Shown one piece after another: positions 2,940-7,271 of a stretch of 7,271 nt of DNA. Position 1 is the first letter of the stretch, and each line of letters begins with the position of its first letter. The DNA is from a virus. Taxonomy: Duplodnaviria > Heunggongvirae > Uroviricota > Caudoviricetes. Where the stretch lies: the IMG/VR virus record IMGVR_UViG_2778261641_000002, positions 1 through 7,271 of that record, one strand, 5' to 3'. The translations under genes and the position numbers were made by a program. The notes under the pieces were generated by a model, which saw only the letters and a program-made list of their open reading frames with translations, was not told the origin of the DNA and did no database searches.

Positions 2940-3302
2940 CTAAATGGCTAATTGCATGTCAAGGCTTTTAACAGCAACATGCTTAACTTTCTCAACACGT
3001 TTACGCATTTTGAAAGCATTTTGCATCGGCTGGTATAAAACAAATAATGACGCTTTCAGGATGTCGTCAATTTCGTTTCTACAGGTTGCCAGTGAAGGTT
3101 TTCTCCATCCCTCGCCACCACGTCCACACATCTTGCGTGGCTTTGCAGTCGCGTGATAGTAGGATGCAATTGCTCGCTTAGATGAACCATGAGCGTAGTA
3201 GCTGAGGAGGATGCCAAAGGCTTTCTTGTCAATGTACATGACGGAATCGACGACCTGAGAAATCAACATTCCATCATCATCATTACACATTGGCCTTGTC
3301 AT
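2940..3302 (-). CDS. Q-like late antiterminator (phage-21/QuuD-type), probably N-terminally truncated; 120 aa from the ATG at 3302
   Basis: Protein [46 protein letters not shown]... aligns, from memory, with the middle of the 127-aa DLP12 QuuD-type Q protein (…[41 protein letters not shown]…), whose first ~40 residues have no counterpart here. The in-frame upstream region hits a stop 14 codons above the ATG. The position, immediately upstream of the late promoter and lysis cassette, is where Q sits in lambdoid phages. Confidence 0.4.
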
Positions 3303-4477
3303 AACTCTTCCCGATAGAGCATGATGATTGAGTCTGCGTCCTGTTCAATGCTTCCTGAATCACGCAAATCTGCGTTTGTCGGGCGTTTGTTTGGTCGCTT
3401 TTCAACATCGCGCGAAAGCTGACTCAGGGAGATAACCGGTGTTTTCAGGTCTTTCGCCATCGCCTTCAGGCTTCCGGAGATGTGGGCAATTGCGAGGTCG
3501 TTGCGGTCTGCTTTCGGCTTCTCAATCAGGCCAAGATAATCCGCCATGATGAGTGAGAGGTTTGGATTTTCCTGTTTGTGCCGTTCTGCGATTGAGCGTA
3601 TTTCTTCGACCGATAATCGCGAGGCATCGACTACCCATACATCCAAATCTGCAAGCTGACTCATGCCGTTAGCAACGCGCGCCCAGCCTTCGTCATCCAT
3701 CGCTGCAGGATTTCGCAGCACACTAACCGACATCCTCCCGGCGTTGGCAATGCTTCGCTCTGCAATCTGCAATGCGCTCATTTCCATTGAGAAAATCAAT
3801 ACCCCGCGCCGGACGTCAGAACCAGGAATAACGCGGCTTGCAACGCCTTCGGCAATCTTCAGCGCCAGTTCGGTTTTCCCCATACCAGGACGAGCAGCGA
3901 TTATCACCAGGTCTTCCGCGTTCATCCCTCCGGTGATGGCATCAAGTTCTTCAATTCCGGTCTTCAGGGTATCGGACTCTTCTCCGTTCCTCAGACGCCT
4001 GTCAAGCGTGTCAGTGTAGTCAGTAATGATTTCCCCTAACCGTACAGGTTTAACCTCGTCACGGGGCTTTCTGATGGCTGAAAGACGCTTTACAAGCTCA
4101 TCCATCGCCTGACTCGATGCGTCGATGGTTCCGCTCTGAATTGGTTCACGCATTTCATCCATGATTTCCAGCACCAGACGGCGGTGATAGTTATCCGCGA
4201 CCATTCCGGCATATCCCTTCAGGTTTGCGGCACTCGGGCAGTTTTTGCTGGTCATCAGGATTGAGGTGAAATGCTCCTCTCCGCACGCCTCGGCAACCAT
4301 CAGCGCGTCGATTAGGTTTCTGTTTCTCGCCTGCTTGCGGATAACCTCGAAGGCTCTCCGGTAGAGCGGAATTGAAAACGCTTCCGGCTCCAGCGTTGCC
4401 AGAACGTCGCTGGCGGTTGGTGTTAATCCACCAATCAGCAGGCCACCGATAACGCTCGCTTCGATATCCTGTCTCAT
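3299..4477 (-). CDS. DnaB-type replicative helicase (P22 gene 12-like), 392 aa; appears to lack about 45-50 C-terminal residues
   Basis: N-terminus [13 protein letters not shown] resembles E. coli DnaB IEAEQSVLGGLML. Walker [12 protein letters not shown] is present. The C-terminal region [46 protein letters not shown] aligns with Dna[50 protein letters not shown]..., but the ORF stops right after YREEL, whereas DnaB continues for about 49 residues including the GKQRNGP motif. The start ATG overlaps the O stop codon (ATGA). Confidence 0.85.
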
Positions 4478-5421
4478 GCAATCCCCCTGTCTGCAAACTT
4501 CCCTTCCCGTACTCCAGTTAACGAATCTTCCCTCAGCAGGTAATCAAAATCTGCCGTCCAGCCAGTGTCGTTGTCTCCGAAGTAAAACGGCTTGGCCTGA
4601 TGTACAAACGCCCTGACATACGCTCTGAAACCGTCCACGCTTGGCGTTTTCAGTTGCGGGATGATTTTCTTCAGGCGGCGTTTGCGTTTCTCGTTGACCG
4701 CAACAGCGTGTGGCAGTCTGTCACCGACTTCGGTGTTGTAGGCGTTCAGGAAGGATTCGTAGTCGATTCGTTCTGCCTTGCGACGTTCAGGTTTAACCTG
4801 CCCATCGCCGCCCCCATTGGGGGGTAGGGGGGTATTATTTATATTCTTGTTAATACCTTCTTGTTCATGATGTGCGGTTGTTTGTGCGGCTTCATGTGCG
4901 CTTTCATGTGCGGCATGTACGCTGAAAGCCGCGCCATTACTGGCTTCATCATGTGCGGCATCATGTGCGGTTGTTTGTGCGGCTTCATGTGCGGGTGAAT
5001 TGTCCATTTTTTGAGCGTATTCATGGTAATTTGTGATGGTGATCACACGACCTTTTTGCTTCTCTCCATCAATGGAGATCATCCCCTCTTTCACAAAAAC
5101 CTGAAGCATCCGCTCAACCTGATCACGGCTTGCCGGCTTGCCATGCCTGTCGCATAACTGAAGACCTAAATCAGCTGCTGTCACAACCAGTTGACCGGGT
5201 TGCAGATGCCATTCATGACCTTTGAAATTCGCTTTGTATGGCTTTCTGGCGGCATTCAGGAGAAGGTTTTCCCACAGGGTGCGAAGATAAACATCTTTCG
5301 CCCATGACTGTTTCAGAATGCTCCGGTACAACGGAATGTAACCAGTTTTCTGGTTCTCCATCCTGTTGCTCCTGCGCTCGTGTGCGGCGCTGAAATCGTA
5401 GATTTTTGCTGTATTGCTCAT
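4474..5421 (-). CDS. O: Replication initiator, lambda O-like N-terminus, 315 aa
   Basis: N-terminus [10 protein letters not shown] resembles lambda O MTNTAKILNF. The middle of the gene encodes a His/Ala-rich repeat ([41 protein letters not shown]) that coincides with a DNA iteron array, as for ori-lambda inside O. The C-terminal domain (…[29 protein letters not shown]) does not resemble lambda O, consistent with partnering a DnaB-type helicase rather than lambda P. Confidence 0.85.
4819..4860. other. AT-rich tract plus G6-TA-G6 element adjacent to the iterons (putative origin unwinding region)
   Basis: TATTATTTATATTCTTGTTAATA (4833-4855) lies directly downstream of the iterons in the O-gene sense, matching the iterons-then-AT-rich layout of ori-lambda. 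It is flanked by GGGGGGTAGGGGGG (4819-4832) and the near-palindrome CCCCCATTGGGGG (4811-4823). Confidence 0.5.
4866..4994. repeat. Iteron array of the replication origin inside the O gene: eight TGTGCGG cores at exact 12-bp spacing in two clusters of four
   Basis: Plus-strand TGTGCGG (or TGTGCGC) begins at 4871, 4883, 4895, 4907 and at 4952, 4964, 4976, 4988, with one degenerate copy TGTACGC at 4917. A 31-bp perfect direct repeat ATGTGCGGTTGTTTGTGCGGCTTCATGTGCG occurs at 4869-4899 and 4961-4991. Confidence 0.7.
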
Positions 5422-5423
5422 AA

Positions 5424-5696
5424 CTACCTGCCTTGACGAAAGACCTTAAGAACATCGTTAAACTGACTTACGGATATGTCTTCTTTGAGAAGCTTTTTCA
5501 GAAATGCGTTTGGAATTAACGTATATCCCTCCTCTTTTGGTAGAGACTGGAGCAACGCCCTCGCCTCAGCCTTCAGAAGCTCAGTTCTGGCAACTTTCAC
5601 AAAAGAGATTTGAGTTCTTTCATCAATGGAACGAAGGAAGCGCAAACGCTTAGCTTCTTTGTGTGTATCAGGTGGATTAAAGCCTTTGTTTCGCAT
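5424..5696 (-). CDS. Hypothetical protein, 90 aa, between cII and O
   Basis: The ORF-track frame 5424..5864, started at the internal ATG at 5696, gives MRNKGFNPPDTHKEAKRLRFLRSIDERTQISFVKVARTELLKAEARALLQSLPKEEGYTLIPNAFLKKLLKEDISVSQFNDVLKVFRQGR. A strong ribosome-binding site (GAGGTAA) lies 5-10 nt upstream. The gene is tightly packed: 22 nt after the cII stop, and its stop is 2 nt before the O start. I do not recognise the family. Confidence 0.5.
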   Translation of the reverse strand: MRNKGFNPPDTHKEAKRLRFLRSIDERTQISFVKVARTELLKAEARALLQSLPKEEGYTLIPNAFLKKLLKEDISVSQFNDVLKVFRQGR

Positions 5697-5718
5697 ATAA
5701 TTACCTCGTTGGATGTTG

Positions 5719-6018
5719 TTAAAAATCCATCTGGATTTGTTCAGAACGCTCGGTCTTGCACACCGGGCGTTTTTTATTGGTGATTTCATCAAGCGCATAC
5801 TTAAAAGCCCTGCTAATCGGACTGATGTCTGATGCCATTCCGAAAGCACACAAGACCGAAGCAATAAATCTCCAGTCCGTTCTGCTTATCTTCGATTCAT
5901 GACAGCCAATCATCTTTGCCAGACCGCGCTGGGTAAGCGTTGACAGGTTGATGAGTAAATCTGTTTCTGCGCGATCAACGTCGCGCTGTGATAGTTTGCT
6001 GTAACTTGTTTGTTCCAT
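5719..6018 (-). CDS. cII: cII-like transcriptional activator (lysogeny establishment), 99 aa
   Basis: The C-terminal region ...DEITNKKRPVCKTERSEQIQMDF matches lambda cII ...ILTNKKRPAATERSEQIQMEF as I recall it. A helix-turn-helix-like segment LTQRGLAKMIGCHESKISRTDWRF is present. The gene is immediately downstream of cro, as in lambda. Confidence 0.85.
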   Translation of the reverse strand: MEQTSYSKLSQRDVDRAETDLLINLSTLTQRGLAKMIGCHESKISRTDWRFIASVLCAFGMASDISPISRAFKYALDEITNKKRPVCKTERSEQIQMDF

Positions 6019-6103
6019 TTCTTAAGATTTCCAGTAGTGAATGGTTAGTTGAAAGGTATGCGTGGAAACGCATATGGCCTTAGTTGGTCAGATATCTTGG
6101 GAC

Positions 6104-6149
6104 TCGCTTTGTCAGCGACGTAGGACGAATGTCCATTGTGAAAATAGCG
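6104..6149 (-). promoter_or_regulatory. Candidate nutR-like site (boxA-like plus boxB-like hairpin) between cro and cII
   Basis: The minus-strand transcript reads CCGCUAUUUUCACAAUGGACAUUCGUCCUACG-UCGCU-GACAA-AGCGA. CGCUAUUUU resembles boxA (CGCUCUUA); UCGCU-GACAA-AGCGA is a 5-bp stem with a purine-rich pentaloop like lambda boxB (GCCCU-GAAAA-AGGGC). The position, directly 3' of cro, matches lambda nutR. The boxA-boxB spacing (about 22 nt) is longer than in lambda. Confidence 0.25.
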
Positions 6150-6156
6150 GTGTTAC

Positions 6157-6384
6157 TTATGCAGCCAGAAGGTTCTTTTTGCTTATTTCAAGCATTTCGC
6201 TTGCTTGATATTTGCCACCAGAAATCTCTTCGATTTTTGATGCGTATTTCGTTTTCCCAAAAAACTCAGTCTTAGGGAGGAAGCCGTTTTTGAGCCACTT
6301 ATAGACAGCCCTTTCGCTAACTCCACAAGCCTTCGCAACTTCAGGGATGCCGACACCTTTAATCGGCTCATCAAGATTTTGCAT
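6157..6384 (-). CDS. cro: Cro-like helix-turn-helix repressor, 75 aa from the ATG at 6384
   Basis: Protein MQNLDEPIKGVGIPEVAKACGVSERAVYKWLKNGFLPK... has a clear helix-turn-helix (IPEVAKACGVSERAVYKWLKNG). It is transcribed divergently from cI across a 78-bp operator region. AAGGA lies 7-8 nt upstream of the 6384 ATG; the ORF-track start at 6417 has no ribosome-binding site. Confidence 0.7.
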   Translation of the reverse strand: MQNLDEPIKGVGIPEVAKACGVSERAVYKWLKNGFLPKTEFFGKTKYASKIEEISGGKYQASEMLEISKKNLLAA

Positions 6385-6399
6385 AGGGATATCCTTTTT

Positions 6400-6461
6400 C
6401 GTACTTTCAGTACGCATTATGATTGAACTGAAAGTTTTTGCAAGTGCTTTAGTATCGTACT
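6400..6461. promoter_or_regulatory. Divergent immunity-region control region: three candidate operators plus pR (for cro) and pRM-like (for cI) promoter elements
   Basis: Inverted-repeat sites: CGTACtttcaGTACG (6400-6414), AACTGAAAGTT (6426-6436, which shares ACTTTCAGT in opposite orientation with the first), and AGTAtcgTACT (6451-6461, which shares CGTACT). Minus-strand pR candidate: -35 TTGCAA (6438-6443), 16-bp spacer, -10 CATAAT (6416-6421). Plus-strand TAGTAT (6450-6455) ends 7 nt before the cI ATG, and there is no Shine-Dalgarno sequence. Confidence 0.4.
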
Positions 6462-6462
6462 C

Positions 6463-7170
6463 ATGGTTCAGAATGAAAAAGTGCGCAAAGAATTCGCCCA
6501 GCGGCTAGCGCAAGCCTGTAAAGAAGCTGGTCTTGATGAACATGGTAGGGGAATGGCTATAGCCCGTGCCCTTTCTCTTTCGTCCAAAGGCGTTAGCAAA
6601 TGGTTTAATGCTGAGTCTTTACCGCGTCAGGAAAAAATGAATGCGCTTGCGAAATTTCTAAACGTTGATGTTGTTTGGCTTCAGCACGGCACTTCGTTAA
6701 ATGGAGCGAATGATGAAGATACTCTTTCATTTGTTGGCAAATTAAAAAAAGGGTTAGTGCGCGTGGTTGGTGAGGCAATTCTTGGTGTTGATGGTGCCAT
6801 CGAGATGACCGAAGAGCGCGATGGGTGGCTCAAGATTTATAGCGATGATCCAGATGCCTTTGGTCTTCGTGTGAAAGGAGACAGCATGTGGCCTAGAATA
6901 AAATCAGGAGAATATGTACTCATTGAGCCTAACACCAAAGTATTCCCGGGTGATGAGGTGTTTGTCAGAACCGTTGAAGGACACAACATGATCAAAGTTC
7001 TTGGCTATGACAGAGACGGAGAATACCAGTTTACAAGCATCAACCAGGACCATAGGCCAATAACGTTGCCTTATCATCAAGTAGCAAAGGTGGAGTATGT
7101 GGCTGGTATTCTGAAGCAATCTCGCCATCTGGATGACATCGAGGCAAGGGAGTGGCTGAAAAGTTCGTGA
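6463..7170 (+). CDS. cI: cI-type prophage repressor (N-terminal helix-turn-helix plus C-terminal LexA/S24-like autopeptidase domain), 235 aa
   Basis: The N-terminus (…RALSLSSKGVSKWFNAESLPRQEKMNALAKFLNV…) looks like a helix-turn-helix DNA-binding domain. The C-terminal domain has GDSMWP (catalytic Ser) and MIKVLG with the Lys exactly 37 residues after the Ser, the same spacing as LexA Ser119/Lys156. The gene is divergent from cro. Confidence 0.9.
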   Translation: MVQNEKVRKEFAQRLAQACKEAGLDEHGRGMAIARALSLSSKGVSKWFNAESLPRQEKMNALAKFLNVDVVWLQHGTSLNGANDEDTLSFVGKLKKGLVRVVGEAILGVDGAIEMTEERDGWLKIYSDDPDAFGLRVKGDSMWPRIKSGEYVLIEPNTKVFPGDEVFVRTVEGHNMIKVLGYDRDGEYQFTSINQDHRPITLPYHQVAKVEYVAGILKQSRHLDDIEAREWLKSS

Positions 7171-7271
7171 CTTCATCGTCACATAGCTGATAGCCAGTGG
7201 CCTGAAGAGACGTTTGGGTGATAGGAAGTAAGTTTTATGTTGACGGCACAGTCAACTTGGCATAGATTAAT

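What the first reader, a model, noticed from the sequence alone, without database searches (positions are those of the whole stretch)
6400..6465. Immunity switch: three operator-like inverted repeats, a self-complementary -35 (TTGCAA), and an apparently leaderless cI
Three related imperfect palindromes (CGTACtttcaGTACG, AACTGAAAGTT, AGTAtcgTACT) are spaced about 25 bp apart, like OR1-OR2-OR3. One overlaps the pR -10/start region, one lies in the pR spacer, and one overlaps the candidate pRM -10 and the cI ATG. The cI ATG has no Shine-Dalgarno sequence and lies about 7 nt after TAGTAT, suggesting a leaderless cI mRNA as in lambda pRM.
Basis: partly seen in the sequence, partly recalled or inferred. 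Interest (0 to 1): 0.4.

Follow-up and report, generated by a model that had tools for sequence, protein, structure and literature searches.

The report
Phage 933W right operator, rediscovered

Summary
Window 6100-7200 is 98.5% identical to phage 933W's immunity region, and the cI protein is 100% identical to the 933W repressor. GenBank records for 933W and phage 22deltatox annotate three 15-bp operators, which map to window OR1 6400-6414, OR2 6424-6438 and OR3 6456-6470. All three fit the published consensus CGAACTGnCAGTTCG (PMC3317979). Palindrome 3 (AGTAtcgTACT, 6451-6461) is not an operator. True OR3, CGTACTCATGGTTCA, is centred on the A of the cI ATG, so the spacing is 24 and 32 bp, not about 25 and 25. 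TTGCAA is the pR -35; its self-complementarity is lost in relatives. Leaderless cI is not shown in any paper I could read, but 38 related loci support it. In these loci a TAnnAT hexamer sits 7 nt before an SD-less ATG at the OR3 centre. Pasteurellaceae relatives keep the same -10/OR3 layout but place the ATG about 19-24 nt downstream, behind an SD. Unlike lambda, OR2 is centred near -32 and contains the candidate pRM -35. Verdict: already known, low interest.

The parts
6400..6414 (.). OR1, CGTACTTTCAGTACG. It is the highest-affinity repressor site. It lies just downstream of the pR -10 and covers the predicted pR start.
   Evidence: Annotated as oR1 in 933W (AF125520) and as the OR1 repressor binding site in GQ499365, mapped to the window. 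Exact match to GWACYNNNRGTWC. Positions 2, 4, 5, 11 and 14 are invariant in 29 distinct relatives. Affinity data are in PMC3317979 and PMC5977221.
6424..6438 (.). OR2, TGAACTGAAAGTTTT. It lies in the pR spacer and contains the candidate pRM -35.
   Evidence: Annotated oR2/OR2. One mismatch to the pattern, at position 2', as PMC3317979 describes for one OR2 half-site. The centre TGA.A is invariant in relatives, whereas the centres of OR1 and OR3 vary.
6456..6470 (.). OR3, CGTACTCATGGTTCA. It abuts the pRM -10. Its centre is the A of the cI ATG, and its right half-site encodes Met-Val-Gln.
   Evidence: Annotated oR3/OR3. Exact pattern match. Conserved in SI5, the Providencia phage and 30 of 40 distinct related sequences (31 counting L046 with its start shifted 9 nt upstream), with the ATG at positions 8-10.
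6416..6443 (-). pR: -35 TTGCAA (6443..6438), 16-bp spacer, -10 CATAAT (6421..6416). The predicted start is about 6407-6409.
   Evidence: Consensus scan, 9 of 12 matches. Same coordinates as the 933W pR annotation. CTTGnn and ATTATG are conserved in relatives. The start site is inferred.
6428..6455 (+). pRM (pM): candidate -35 CTGAAA (6428-6433, inside OR2), 16-bp spacer, -10 TAGTAT (6450-6455). The predicted start is at or 1 nt before the ATG at 6463.
   Evidence: 933W GenBank 'pM; putative maintenance promoter' maps here. A TAnnAT hexamer lies 7 nt before the ATG in most enterobacterial relatives, with the middle bases varying. CTGAnA is invariant, and reads CTGACA in some relatives. The consensus scan did not detect it, as expected for a weak, activator-dependent promoter.
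6463..7170 (+). cI repressor, 235 aa: an HTH N-terminal domain plus an S24 (LexA-like) autocleavage domain.
   Evidence: ORF listing. Pfam HTH_3 and Peptidase_S24. 100% protein identity to 933W cI. S41, K42, K46 and E51 of the published recognition helix fall at those numbers when counted from this ATG (PMC3317979).
6157..6384 (-). cro, 75 aa, starting MQNLDEPIKG. Its SD AAGGA is at 6396..6392, 7 nt before the ATG.
   Evidence: ORF listing. HTH hits, including a weak P22_Cro match. The 933W cro annotation maps here. The SD was read from the sequence.
6104..6149 (-). nutR (putative), between cro and cII.
   Evidence: Mapped from the 933W annotation. Not tested further.
5719..6018 (-). cII activator gene.
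   Evidence: Pfam Phage_CII, E = 6e-34.
5996..6009 (+). Candidate cII-binding repeat of pRE, TTGCTGTAACTTGT (TTGC-N6-TTGT), pointing towards cI. It would give a long-leadered cI transcript during establishment of lysogeny.
   Evidence: Pattern search: 3 matches in the window against 1.2 expected. The position at the 5' end of cII matches lambda pRE (my own knowledge). Inferred only.

Best explanation
The region is the right operator (OR) of a lambdoid prophage that carries phage 933W immunity.

Three 15-bp, two-fold symmetric operators (half-site xG(A/T)AC) lie between divergent cro and cI: OR1 at 6400-6414, OR2 at 6424-6438 and OR3 at 6456-6470.

pR (TTGCAA, 16 bp, CATAAT, minus strand) starts at about the centre of OR1. 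Repressor bound at OR1 and OR2 therefore shuts off cro and the lytic genes.

pRM (CTGAAA, 16 bp, TAGTAT, plus strand) starts at about the centre of OR3, which is the A of the cI ATG. The maintenance cI mRNA is therefore most likely leaderless or has a 1-nt leader, and repressor bound at OR3 blocks its own promoter.

Published work on the identical protein and operators shows the following:
- The repressor binds non-cooperatively, with relative KD for OR1:OR2:OR3 of about 1:14:26 in intact OR.
- OR2 occupancy accompanies pRM activation and OR3 occupancy represses it.
- Because the OR2 and OR3 affinities are close, pRM is never fully active. Lysogens hold only about 34 repressors per cell, which gives 'hair-trigger' induction.

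Shown here: identity with 933W, the operator positions and their conservation. Taken from the literature: affinities, activation, repression and non-cooperativity. Inferred: both start sites, the leaderless status, and the placement of the pRM -35 inside OR2.
For: - The DNA is 98.5% identical to 933W and many Stx phages over 6100-7200. The OR region differs from 933W only at 6388, 6415 and 6422, all outside the operators. The cI protein is 100% identical to 933W cI.
- GenBank features of AF125520 and GQ499365 map to OR1 6400-6414, OR2 6424-6438, OR3 6456-6470, pR 6416-6443 and pM 6428-6455.
- The pattern GWACYNNNRGTWC picks out exactly these three sites in the intergenic region. In 933W it also finds two OL sites. 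Together the ten half-sites reproduce the counts given in PMC3317979: G at position 2 in all but one OR2 half-site, A4 and C5 invariant, position 6 T in 7 and C in 3. OR1 differs from the consensus at positions 3, 7' and 3'.
- In 38 related loci the triple-operator layout is kept, with spacing 24 and 32-33 bp.
- For leaderless cI: 30 of 40 distinct sequences (31 counting L046 after a 9-nt shift of its start) have the ATG at OR3 positions 8-10. Most enterobacterial relatives have a hexamer matching TATAAT at 4 or more of 6 positions exactly 7 nt upstream. The only SD-like runs are 4-5 nt long and lie 8 or more nt from the ATG. Six distinct Pasteurellaceae layouts keep TATAAT abutting OR3 but place the ATG 19-24 nt downstream, behind AAGGTGA or TAAGGA.
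- Binding and regulation data come from PMC3317979, PMC5977221 and PMC4848623.
Against: - No transcript 5' end for 933W pRM could be read. The primary papers (Koudelka 2004, Tyler 2004, Bullwinkle 2011, Plunkett 1999) are not in the library. No paper in the library says that 933W cI is leaderless.
- The pRM -35 is poor and was not called by the consensus scan.
- If pRM starts at 6463, OR2 is centred at about -32, directly over the -35. That is an unusual place for an activator and differs from lambda's -42.
- Conservation of the ATG and of its spacing to the -10 is confounded by the overlapping OR3.
Confidence: 0.9

Rival explanations
1. One reading: three evenly spaced operators about 25 bp apart, with the third at AGTAtcgTACT (6451-6461) over the pRM -10.
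For: The palindrome exists, and it overlaps the left half-site of the true OR3 (CGTAC, 6456-6460).
Against: Its polarity is opposite to the operator half-sites. It is not annotated in either curated record. It is broken in SI5, the Providencia phage and most relatives, while CGWAC-N5-GTWCA is kept. 4+3+4 inverted repeats occur at chance frequency. With it, the half-site statistics of PMC3317979 could not be reproduced.
Confidence: 0.02
2. A lambda-like pRM geometry. TTGCAA (6438-6443, + strand) would be the pRM -35, sharing its first base (6438) with the end of OR2, much as lambda's pRM -35 overlaps OR2 at its edge. The -10 would be CATGGT (6462-6467) and the start would be near 6474, so that ATG 6463 is not on the maintenance mRNA and cI starts further downstream (for example at GTG 6481).
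For: It would put OR2 at about -42/-43, the classical activating position. TATGGT occurs at that place in many relatives.
Against: The + strand reading of the hexamer is not conserved (ACGCAA, AGTCAA, TTTCAA), while the pR-strand reading is. CATGGT matches TATAAT at only 3 of 6 positions. GTG 6481 is not conserved; relatives have GCG there. MVQ and the reading frame from ATG 6463 are conserved. Published residue numbers count from this ATG (PMC3317979). The TAnnAT hexamer varies at its middle positions in the way a real -10 does.
Confidence: 0.05
3. The cI ATG is used only on leadered transcripts, from pRE or from an upstream start of pRM, with SD-independent internal initiation. There would be no leaderless mRNA.
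For: A pRE-like TTGC-N6-TTGT repeat exists at 5996-6009, so leadered cI transcripts must exist during establishment. No start-site data were available.
Against: Maintenance expression requires a promoter regulated by OR2 and OR3 (literature). The only conserved -10-like element between OR2 and OR3 puts the start at the ATG. Relatives with a real leader carry an SD, and the SD-less ones do not.
Confidence: 0.1

Closest known systems
Bacteriophage 933W OR/cI/cro immunity region (also phi24B, Min27, Stx2 phage 86, phage 22deltatox and others)
   Same: The cI protein is identical. OR1, OR2, OR3, the pR hexamers and the pRM -10 are identical. cro, nutR and cII are in the same arrangement.
   Different: There are three point differences in non-operator bases of OR: 6388, 6415 (one base downstream of the pR -10) and 6422 (one base upstream of it). 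The same allele is found in phages PhiR12_1 and PhiR12_4. The surrounding modules differ. Here the replication module is O plus a DnaB-type helicase, not O plus P. The sequence downstream of cI diverges from 933W after about 7220. The prophage carries a roughly 4-kb deletion.
Phage lambda OR / pRM (leaderless cI mRNA)
   Same: Divergent pR and pRM with three operators. Repressor bound at OR1 and OR2 represses pR. OR2 is linked to pRM activation and OR3 to autorepression. The cI ATG has no SD and lies at the predicted start.
   Different: The operators are 15 bp, not 17 bp, and are spaced 24 and 32 bp apart rather than 24 and 23 bp. OR1 and OR3 sit on the start sites instead of over the spacer and -10. 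OR2 is centred near -32 of pRM, over the -35, instead of at -42. Binding is non-cooperative and OL has only two sites (PMC3317979, PMC5977221). The lambda coordinates are from my own knowledge.
PaaR2 of cryptic prophage CP-933P (E. coli O157:H7)
   Same: It is a cI-like regulator divergent from a cro-like gene. Its pRM-type transcript was shown by 5' RACE and N-terminal sequencing to be leaderless (PMC8630535). This is a precedent for leaderless cI-type genes in O157 prophages.
   Different: It is a different protein family (N-terminus MQKKE) with different operators. It was not compared here beyond the paper.
Lambda CII at pRE (an activator whose repeats straddle the -35)
   Same: If the pRM -35 is CTGAAA inside OR2, the repressor half-sites flank the -35 hexamer much as the CII TTGC repeats flank the pRE -35.
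   Different: This is an analogy of geometry only, recalled from my own knowledge and not tested here. The 933W repressor is an unrelated HTH/S24 protein.

Membership tests
933W-immunity (imm933W) lambdoid right operator | Repressor with the 933W cI sequence and recognition helix | tested here: met
   tblastn shows 100% identity over 235 aa to AF125520 cI. S41, K42, K46 and E51 are at the published positions.
933W-immunity (imm933W) lambdoid right operator | Three 15-bp operators fitting CGAACTGnCAGTTCG at the annotated OR1, OR2 and OR3 positions | tested here: met
   The operator sequences are identical to those of 933W.
933W-immunity (imm933W) lambdoid right operator | Divergent cro with pR overlapped by OR1 and OR2 | tested here: met
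933W-immunity (imm933W) lambdoid right operator | Left operator with only two sites (OL1, OL2) | not testable with these tools
   The window ends 100 bp after cI. In 933W (L001 5907-5943) and Stx2_EH0505 (L004 9475-9511) exactly two sites are found.
933W-immunity (imm933W) lambdoid right operator | Non-cooperative binding with affinity order OR1 >> OR2 > OR3 | not testable with these tools
   Literature only (PMC3317979, PMC5977221). It should apply here because the protein and the sites are identical.
Leaderless cI mRNA of the lambda pRM type | No Shine-Dalgarno sequence before the start codon | tested here: met
   No run of 4 or more nt from TAAGGAGGTGA occurs in the 20 nt upstream. The cro gene has AAGGA.
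Leaderless cI mRNA of the lambda pRM type | A -10 hexamer 6-8 nt upstream of the A of the AUG | tested here: met
   TAGTAT at 6450-6455, then 7 nt, then the ATG. A TAnnAT hexamer is conserved in relatives.
Leaderless cI mRNA of the lambda pRM type | The mapped transcript 5' end coincides with the AUG | not testable with these tools
   This needs 5' RACE or dRNA-seq. Koudelka 2004, cited for the 933W pRM start in PMC4848623 Fig. 6b, is not held.
Lambda-type OR geometry | The activating operator OR2 is centred near -42, next to the pRM -35 | tested here: not met
   The OR2 centre at 6431 is 32 bp from the ATG at 6463. The candidate -35 lies inside OR2.
LexA/S24 autocleaving repressors | Peptidase_S24 domain with the catalytic Ser and Lys | tested here: met
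   Pfam PF00717, E = 4e-16. GDSMWP (Ser141) and Lys178 were read from the sequence. Their catalytic role and Leu-Gly cleavage are from my own knowledge of Koudelka 2004 and Tyler 2004.

The most novel reading that the evidence does not exclude
The cI family to which 933W belongs uses a conserved switch layout that differs from lambda's. The maintenance promoter's -35 (CTGAnA) is embedded in the non-contacted centre of OR2, so the activating repressor straddles the -35, centred near -32, possibly on the opposite DNA face from sigma region 4, as lambda CII does at pRE. The cI start codon doubles as the centre of OR3 and as the transcription start, so the N-terminal Met-Val-Gln is dictated by an operator half-site. 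Pasteurellaceae relatives show the leadered, SD-bearing form of the same promoter-operator unit. This may already be implicit in the primary 933W papers that I could not read.
Probability: 0.3. Interest if true: 0.35.

Novelty: already known. Interest (0 to 1): 0.1.

Why it matters
The 933W switch controls Shiga toxin 2 production in E. coli O157:H7 and has been dissected biochemically since 2004, so finding it again adds nothing new about the system. There are three practical points:
- The operator map for this window needs correcting: OR3 lies on the cI ATG.
- The window appears to come from a deleted, probably defective prophage that still carries imm933W. That prophage would be expected to make its host immune to 933W-type Stx phages.
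- The comparative set gives inexpensive support for a leaderless cI mRNA and for an OR2-over-the-(-35) geometry. Both could be settled by a single 5' end mapping experiment.

Tried and rejected
- I tried to read the primary papers: Tyler 2004 (PMC524894), Koudelka 2004 (PMC524892 and by DOI), Bullwinkle and Koudelka 2011 (PMC3133280) and Plunkett 1999 (PMC93574). None is held.
- A full-text search for the OR1 string found nothing.
- Searches for '933W' with 'leaderless', and for leaderless, Stx, prophage and cI repressor together, found no statement that 933W cI is leaderless.
- I searched for the whole window in complete E. coli genomes and in phages. There is no contiguous match: the best covers 75%, in pieces.
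- I considered TTGCAA as a shared, bidirectional -35. I rejected it because its + strand reading is not conserved.
- I considered a downstream start (GTG 6481) and Met31. I rejected both: GTG 6481 is not conserved, and a start at Met31 would remove the N-terminal 30 residues ahead of the HTH_3 match, which begins at residue 33.
- During the work I first mis-indexed OR2 by one base (6425-6439). and a recount show that TGAACTGAAAGTTTT is at 6424-6438, exactly as annotated.
- The promoter scan does not call pRM. That is expected for a weak promoter and I do not treat it as evidence against it.

Full report
**What is there**

The window encodes a lambdoid early region on the minus strand, with cI on the plus strand.
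- An Rha-type regulator lies at 893-351.
- Lysis genes lie at 2474-1240.
- A Q antiterminator fragment lies at 3302-2940.
- A DnaB-type helicase lies at 4477-3299.
- An O-type initiator lies at 5421-4474.
- cII lies at 6018-5719.
- cro lies at 6384-6157.
- cI lies at 6463-7170 on the plus strand. It is 235 aa, with HTH_3 and Peptidase_S24 domains.

The finding concerns the 78-bp cro-cI intergenic region.

**Identity**

Window 6100-7200 is 98.5% identical to phage 933W and to more than 100 Stx-converting phages. The cI protein is 100% identical to 933W cI. Over 6340-6500 the window differs from 933W at only three bases: 6388, 6415 and 6422. Phages PhiR12_1 and PhiR12_4 are 100% identical over 6330-6660.

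The 933W GenBank record (AF125520) and the phage 22deltatox record (GQ499365) both annotate three 15-bp operators. Mapped to the window, these are OR1 6400-6414, OR2 6424-6438 and OR3 6456-6470. The 933W record also gives pR at 6416-6443 and 'pM' at 6428-6455.

**Check against the published operator description**

Bullwinkle et al. 2012 (PMC3317979) describe the 933W repressor site as follows.
- It is 15 bp long and two-fold symmetric about a central base pair.
- Positions 2-5 and 2'-5' are conserved.
- G is at position 2 in every half-site except one in OR2.
- A4 and C5 are invariant.
- Position 6 is T in 7 of the 10 natural half-sites and C in 3.
- OR1 differs from the consensus at positions 3, 7' and 3'.

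From this the consensus is CGAACTGnCAGTTCG. The derived pattern GWACYNNNRGTWC (up to 1 mismatch) hits the window's intergenic region at exactly 6401-6413, 6425-6437 (one mismatch, at 2') and 6457-6469. In 933W it additionally hits two sites next to nutL, which are OL2 and OL1. The ten half-sites so defined reproduce every count in the paper.

Palindromes 1 (CGTACtttcaGTACG, 6400-6414) and 2 (AACTGAAAGTT, 6426-6436) are real. They are OR1 and the core of OR2.

Palindrome 3 (AGTAtcgTACT, 6451-6461) is made of the pRM -10 (TAGTAT) plus the left half-site of OR3 (CGTAC). I reject it as an operator for three reasons.
- Its arms have the opposite polarity to operator half-sites.
- It is destroyed in Salmonella phage SI5 and in Providencia phage PSTNGR2lys, whereas CG(A/T)ACTCATGGT(T/A)CA is kept.
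- Perfect 4+3+4 inverted repeats occur 33 times in the window, against about 28 expected.

True OR3 is centred on 6463, the A of the cI ATG. The operator centres are therefore 6407, 6431 and 6463, spaced 24 and 32 bp apart.

**Promoters**

The consensus scan finds pR on the minus strand: TTGCAA (6443..6438), 16 bp, CATAAT (6421..6416). The predicted start is at about 6407-6409, which is the centre of OR1. OR2 fills the pR spacer. cro has a normal SD, AAGGA at 6396..6392, 7 nt before its ATG.

For pRM, the 933W annotation implies CTGAAA (6428-6433), 16 bp, TAGTAT (6450-6455). Seven more nucleotides then lead to the ATG. The A at 6463, preceded by C, is the eighth base after the hexamer. From my own knowledge of E. 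coli start-site selection, that is a favoured pyrimidine-purine start position.

**Comparative test**

A scan of one genome per species with an alignment of the cI N-terminal domain returned 38 loci. They come from Escherichia, Pectobacterium, Xenorhabdus, Serratia, Proteus, Providencia, Enterobacter, Klebsiella, Kluyvera, Pantoea, Pseudomonas, Haemophilus and others, at 42-100% identity. Anchoring on the start codon shows five things.

(a) The OR1-OR2-OR3 layout is conserved, with spacing 24 and 32-33 bp.

(b) In 30 of 40 distinct sequences (31 counting L046 once its start is shifted 9 nt upstream), the ATG occupies positions 8-10 of a site that fits xGWAC-N5-GTWCx. The conserved N-terminus Met-Val-Gln is therefore encoded by ATG plus the right half-site, GT(T/A)CA.

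(c) Exactly 7 nt upstream of the ATG, most enterobacterial relatives carry a hexamer matching TATAAT at 4 or more of 6 positions. Examples are TAGTAT, TACTAT, TAATAT, TATTAT, TATCAT, TATGAT, TATAGT and TATAAT. T1, A2 and T6 are kept and the middle bases vary, which is the signature of a functional -10. Two loci have the hexamer shifted by one base. The only SD-like runs in these relatives are 4-5 nt long and lie 8 or more nt from the ATG.

(d) Six distinct Pasteurellaceae layouts keep TATAAT abutting OR3, but their ATG lies 19-24 nt past the OR3 centre and is preceded by AAGGTGA or TAAGGA. In these loci the centre of OR3 is not ATG. The SD therefore appears exactly where a leader exists. This is the best available support for a start inside OR3 and for a leaderless enterobacterial cI mRNA.

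(e) The + strand TTGCAA is not conserved (ACGCAA, AGTCAA, TTTCAA), while CTTGnn on the pR strand is. The self-complementarity is incidental.

**How it works**

The following comes from the literature on the identical protein and sites.
- The 933W repressor binds its sites non-cooperatively. Relative dissociation constants in intact OR are OR1 1, OR2 13.6 and OR3 26.4 (PMC5977221).
- Binding at OR1 and OR2 represses pR. OR2 occupancy goes with pRM activation and OR3 occupancy with pRM repression.
- OL has only two sites, and the long-range loop is reported not to affect pRM.
- Because OR2 and OR3 fill at similar concentrations, pRM is partly auto-repressed. cI mRNA is 10-30-fold lower than in lambda or 434 lysogens, and there are about 34 repressor molecules per cell. 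This explains the easy induction (PMC4848623, PMC5977221).

What the sequence adds is this. OR1 and OR3 sit on the two start sites, and the two promoters interdigitate. Each -35 lies in the other promoter's spacer, and the predicted starts are about 54-56 bp apart, so RNA polymerase probably cannot occupy both promoters at once (inference).

**Unexplained**

With the start at 6463, OR2 is centred at about -32 and contains the candidate -35. Across 29 distinct operator triples, the OR2 centre (T6, G7, A8 and A10) is invariant or nearly so (information content 1.8-2.0 bits). The centres of OR1 and OR3 are variable by comparison, with values as low as 0.03-0.8 bits at OR1 positions 8-9 and 0.15-0.56 bits at OR3 positions 6-7. 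This argues for a second constraint on OR2, most simply the pRM -35 (CTGAnA, which reads CTGACA in some relatives).

How a repressor that straddles the -35 activates transcription is not deducible here. Direct contact from the opposite DNA face (a CII-like geometry) and relief of competition from pR are both possible.

**Verdict**

The finding is a rediscovery of a well-characterised element. Novelty: already known. Interest: low.

Noticed in passing
window 3295-3313 (junction); helicase 4477-3299 and Q fragment 3302-2940: Compared with the intact prophage of E. coli TL20, the window lacks about 4 kb: the helicase C-terminus, the whole nin region and the Q N-terminus. The two flanks overlap by 19 bp at 3295-3313, which suggests a microhomology-mediated deletion. 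The element is probably a defective prophage that still carries imm933W. No complete E. coli genome or phage record contains the window contiguously.
   Followed up: partly
window 7220-7271, with a promoter-like site at 7240-7268 (+): Homology to 933W ends at about 7220. The sequence that follows contains TTGACG, 17 bp, TAGATT, overlapped by the inverted repeat GTTGACggcacaGTCAAC. In Stx2_EH0505 the same block precedes an NYN-domain gene and follows a DUF3024 gene that is absent here. In phage AU5Stx1, whose cI record is annotated with a different length (705 bp), the same block follows cI directly. It looks like a moron promoter and a module boundary.
   Followed up: partly
window 5996-6009 (+): TTGCTGTAACTTGT (TTGC-N6-TTGT) lies at the 5' end of cII and points towards cI. 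It is a candidate CII-binding site of pRE, which would give a long-leadered cI transcript whose SD-less ATG must then be used internally.
   Followed up: no
window 6388, 6415, 6422: These are the only differences from 933W in OR. 6388 lies between the cro SD and the cro ATG. 6415 is one base downstream of the pR -10 and one base outside OR1. 6422 is one base upstream of the pR -10. They might tune pR strength or cro translation. The same allele occurs in phages PhiR12_1 and PhiR12_4.
   Followed up: partly
window 4866-4900 and 4959-4993 (inside the O gene): A 35-bp direct repeat (97% cross-match) lies in the His/Ala-rich middle of the O-type initiator. It is probably part of the origin iterons or of a repetitive linker. 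The O gene here pairs with a DnaB-type helicase rather than the lambda P protein found in 933W.
   Followed up: no
window 5424-5699 (-): A 91-aa ORF between cII and O has no Pfam match. A 90-aa hypothetical protein is annotated at the same position in E. coli TL20.
   Followed up: no
loci L022, L027-L031, L034, L042 (Pasteurellaceae), about 100 bp upstream of position 1201: Haemophilus, Gallibacterium and Volucribacter prophages carry the same three-operator unit with GAACTGAAAGTAC as OR2. Their repressor gene, however, has a leader of about 19-24 nt with an SD. This is a natural leadered counterpart of the enterobacterial layout.
   Followed up: partly
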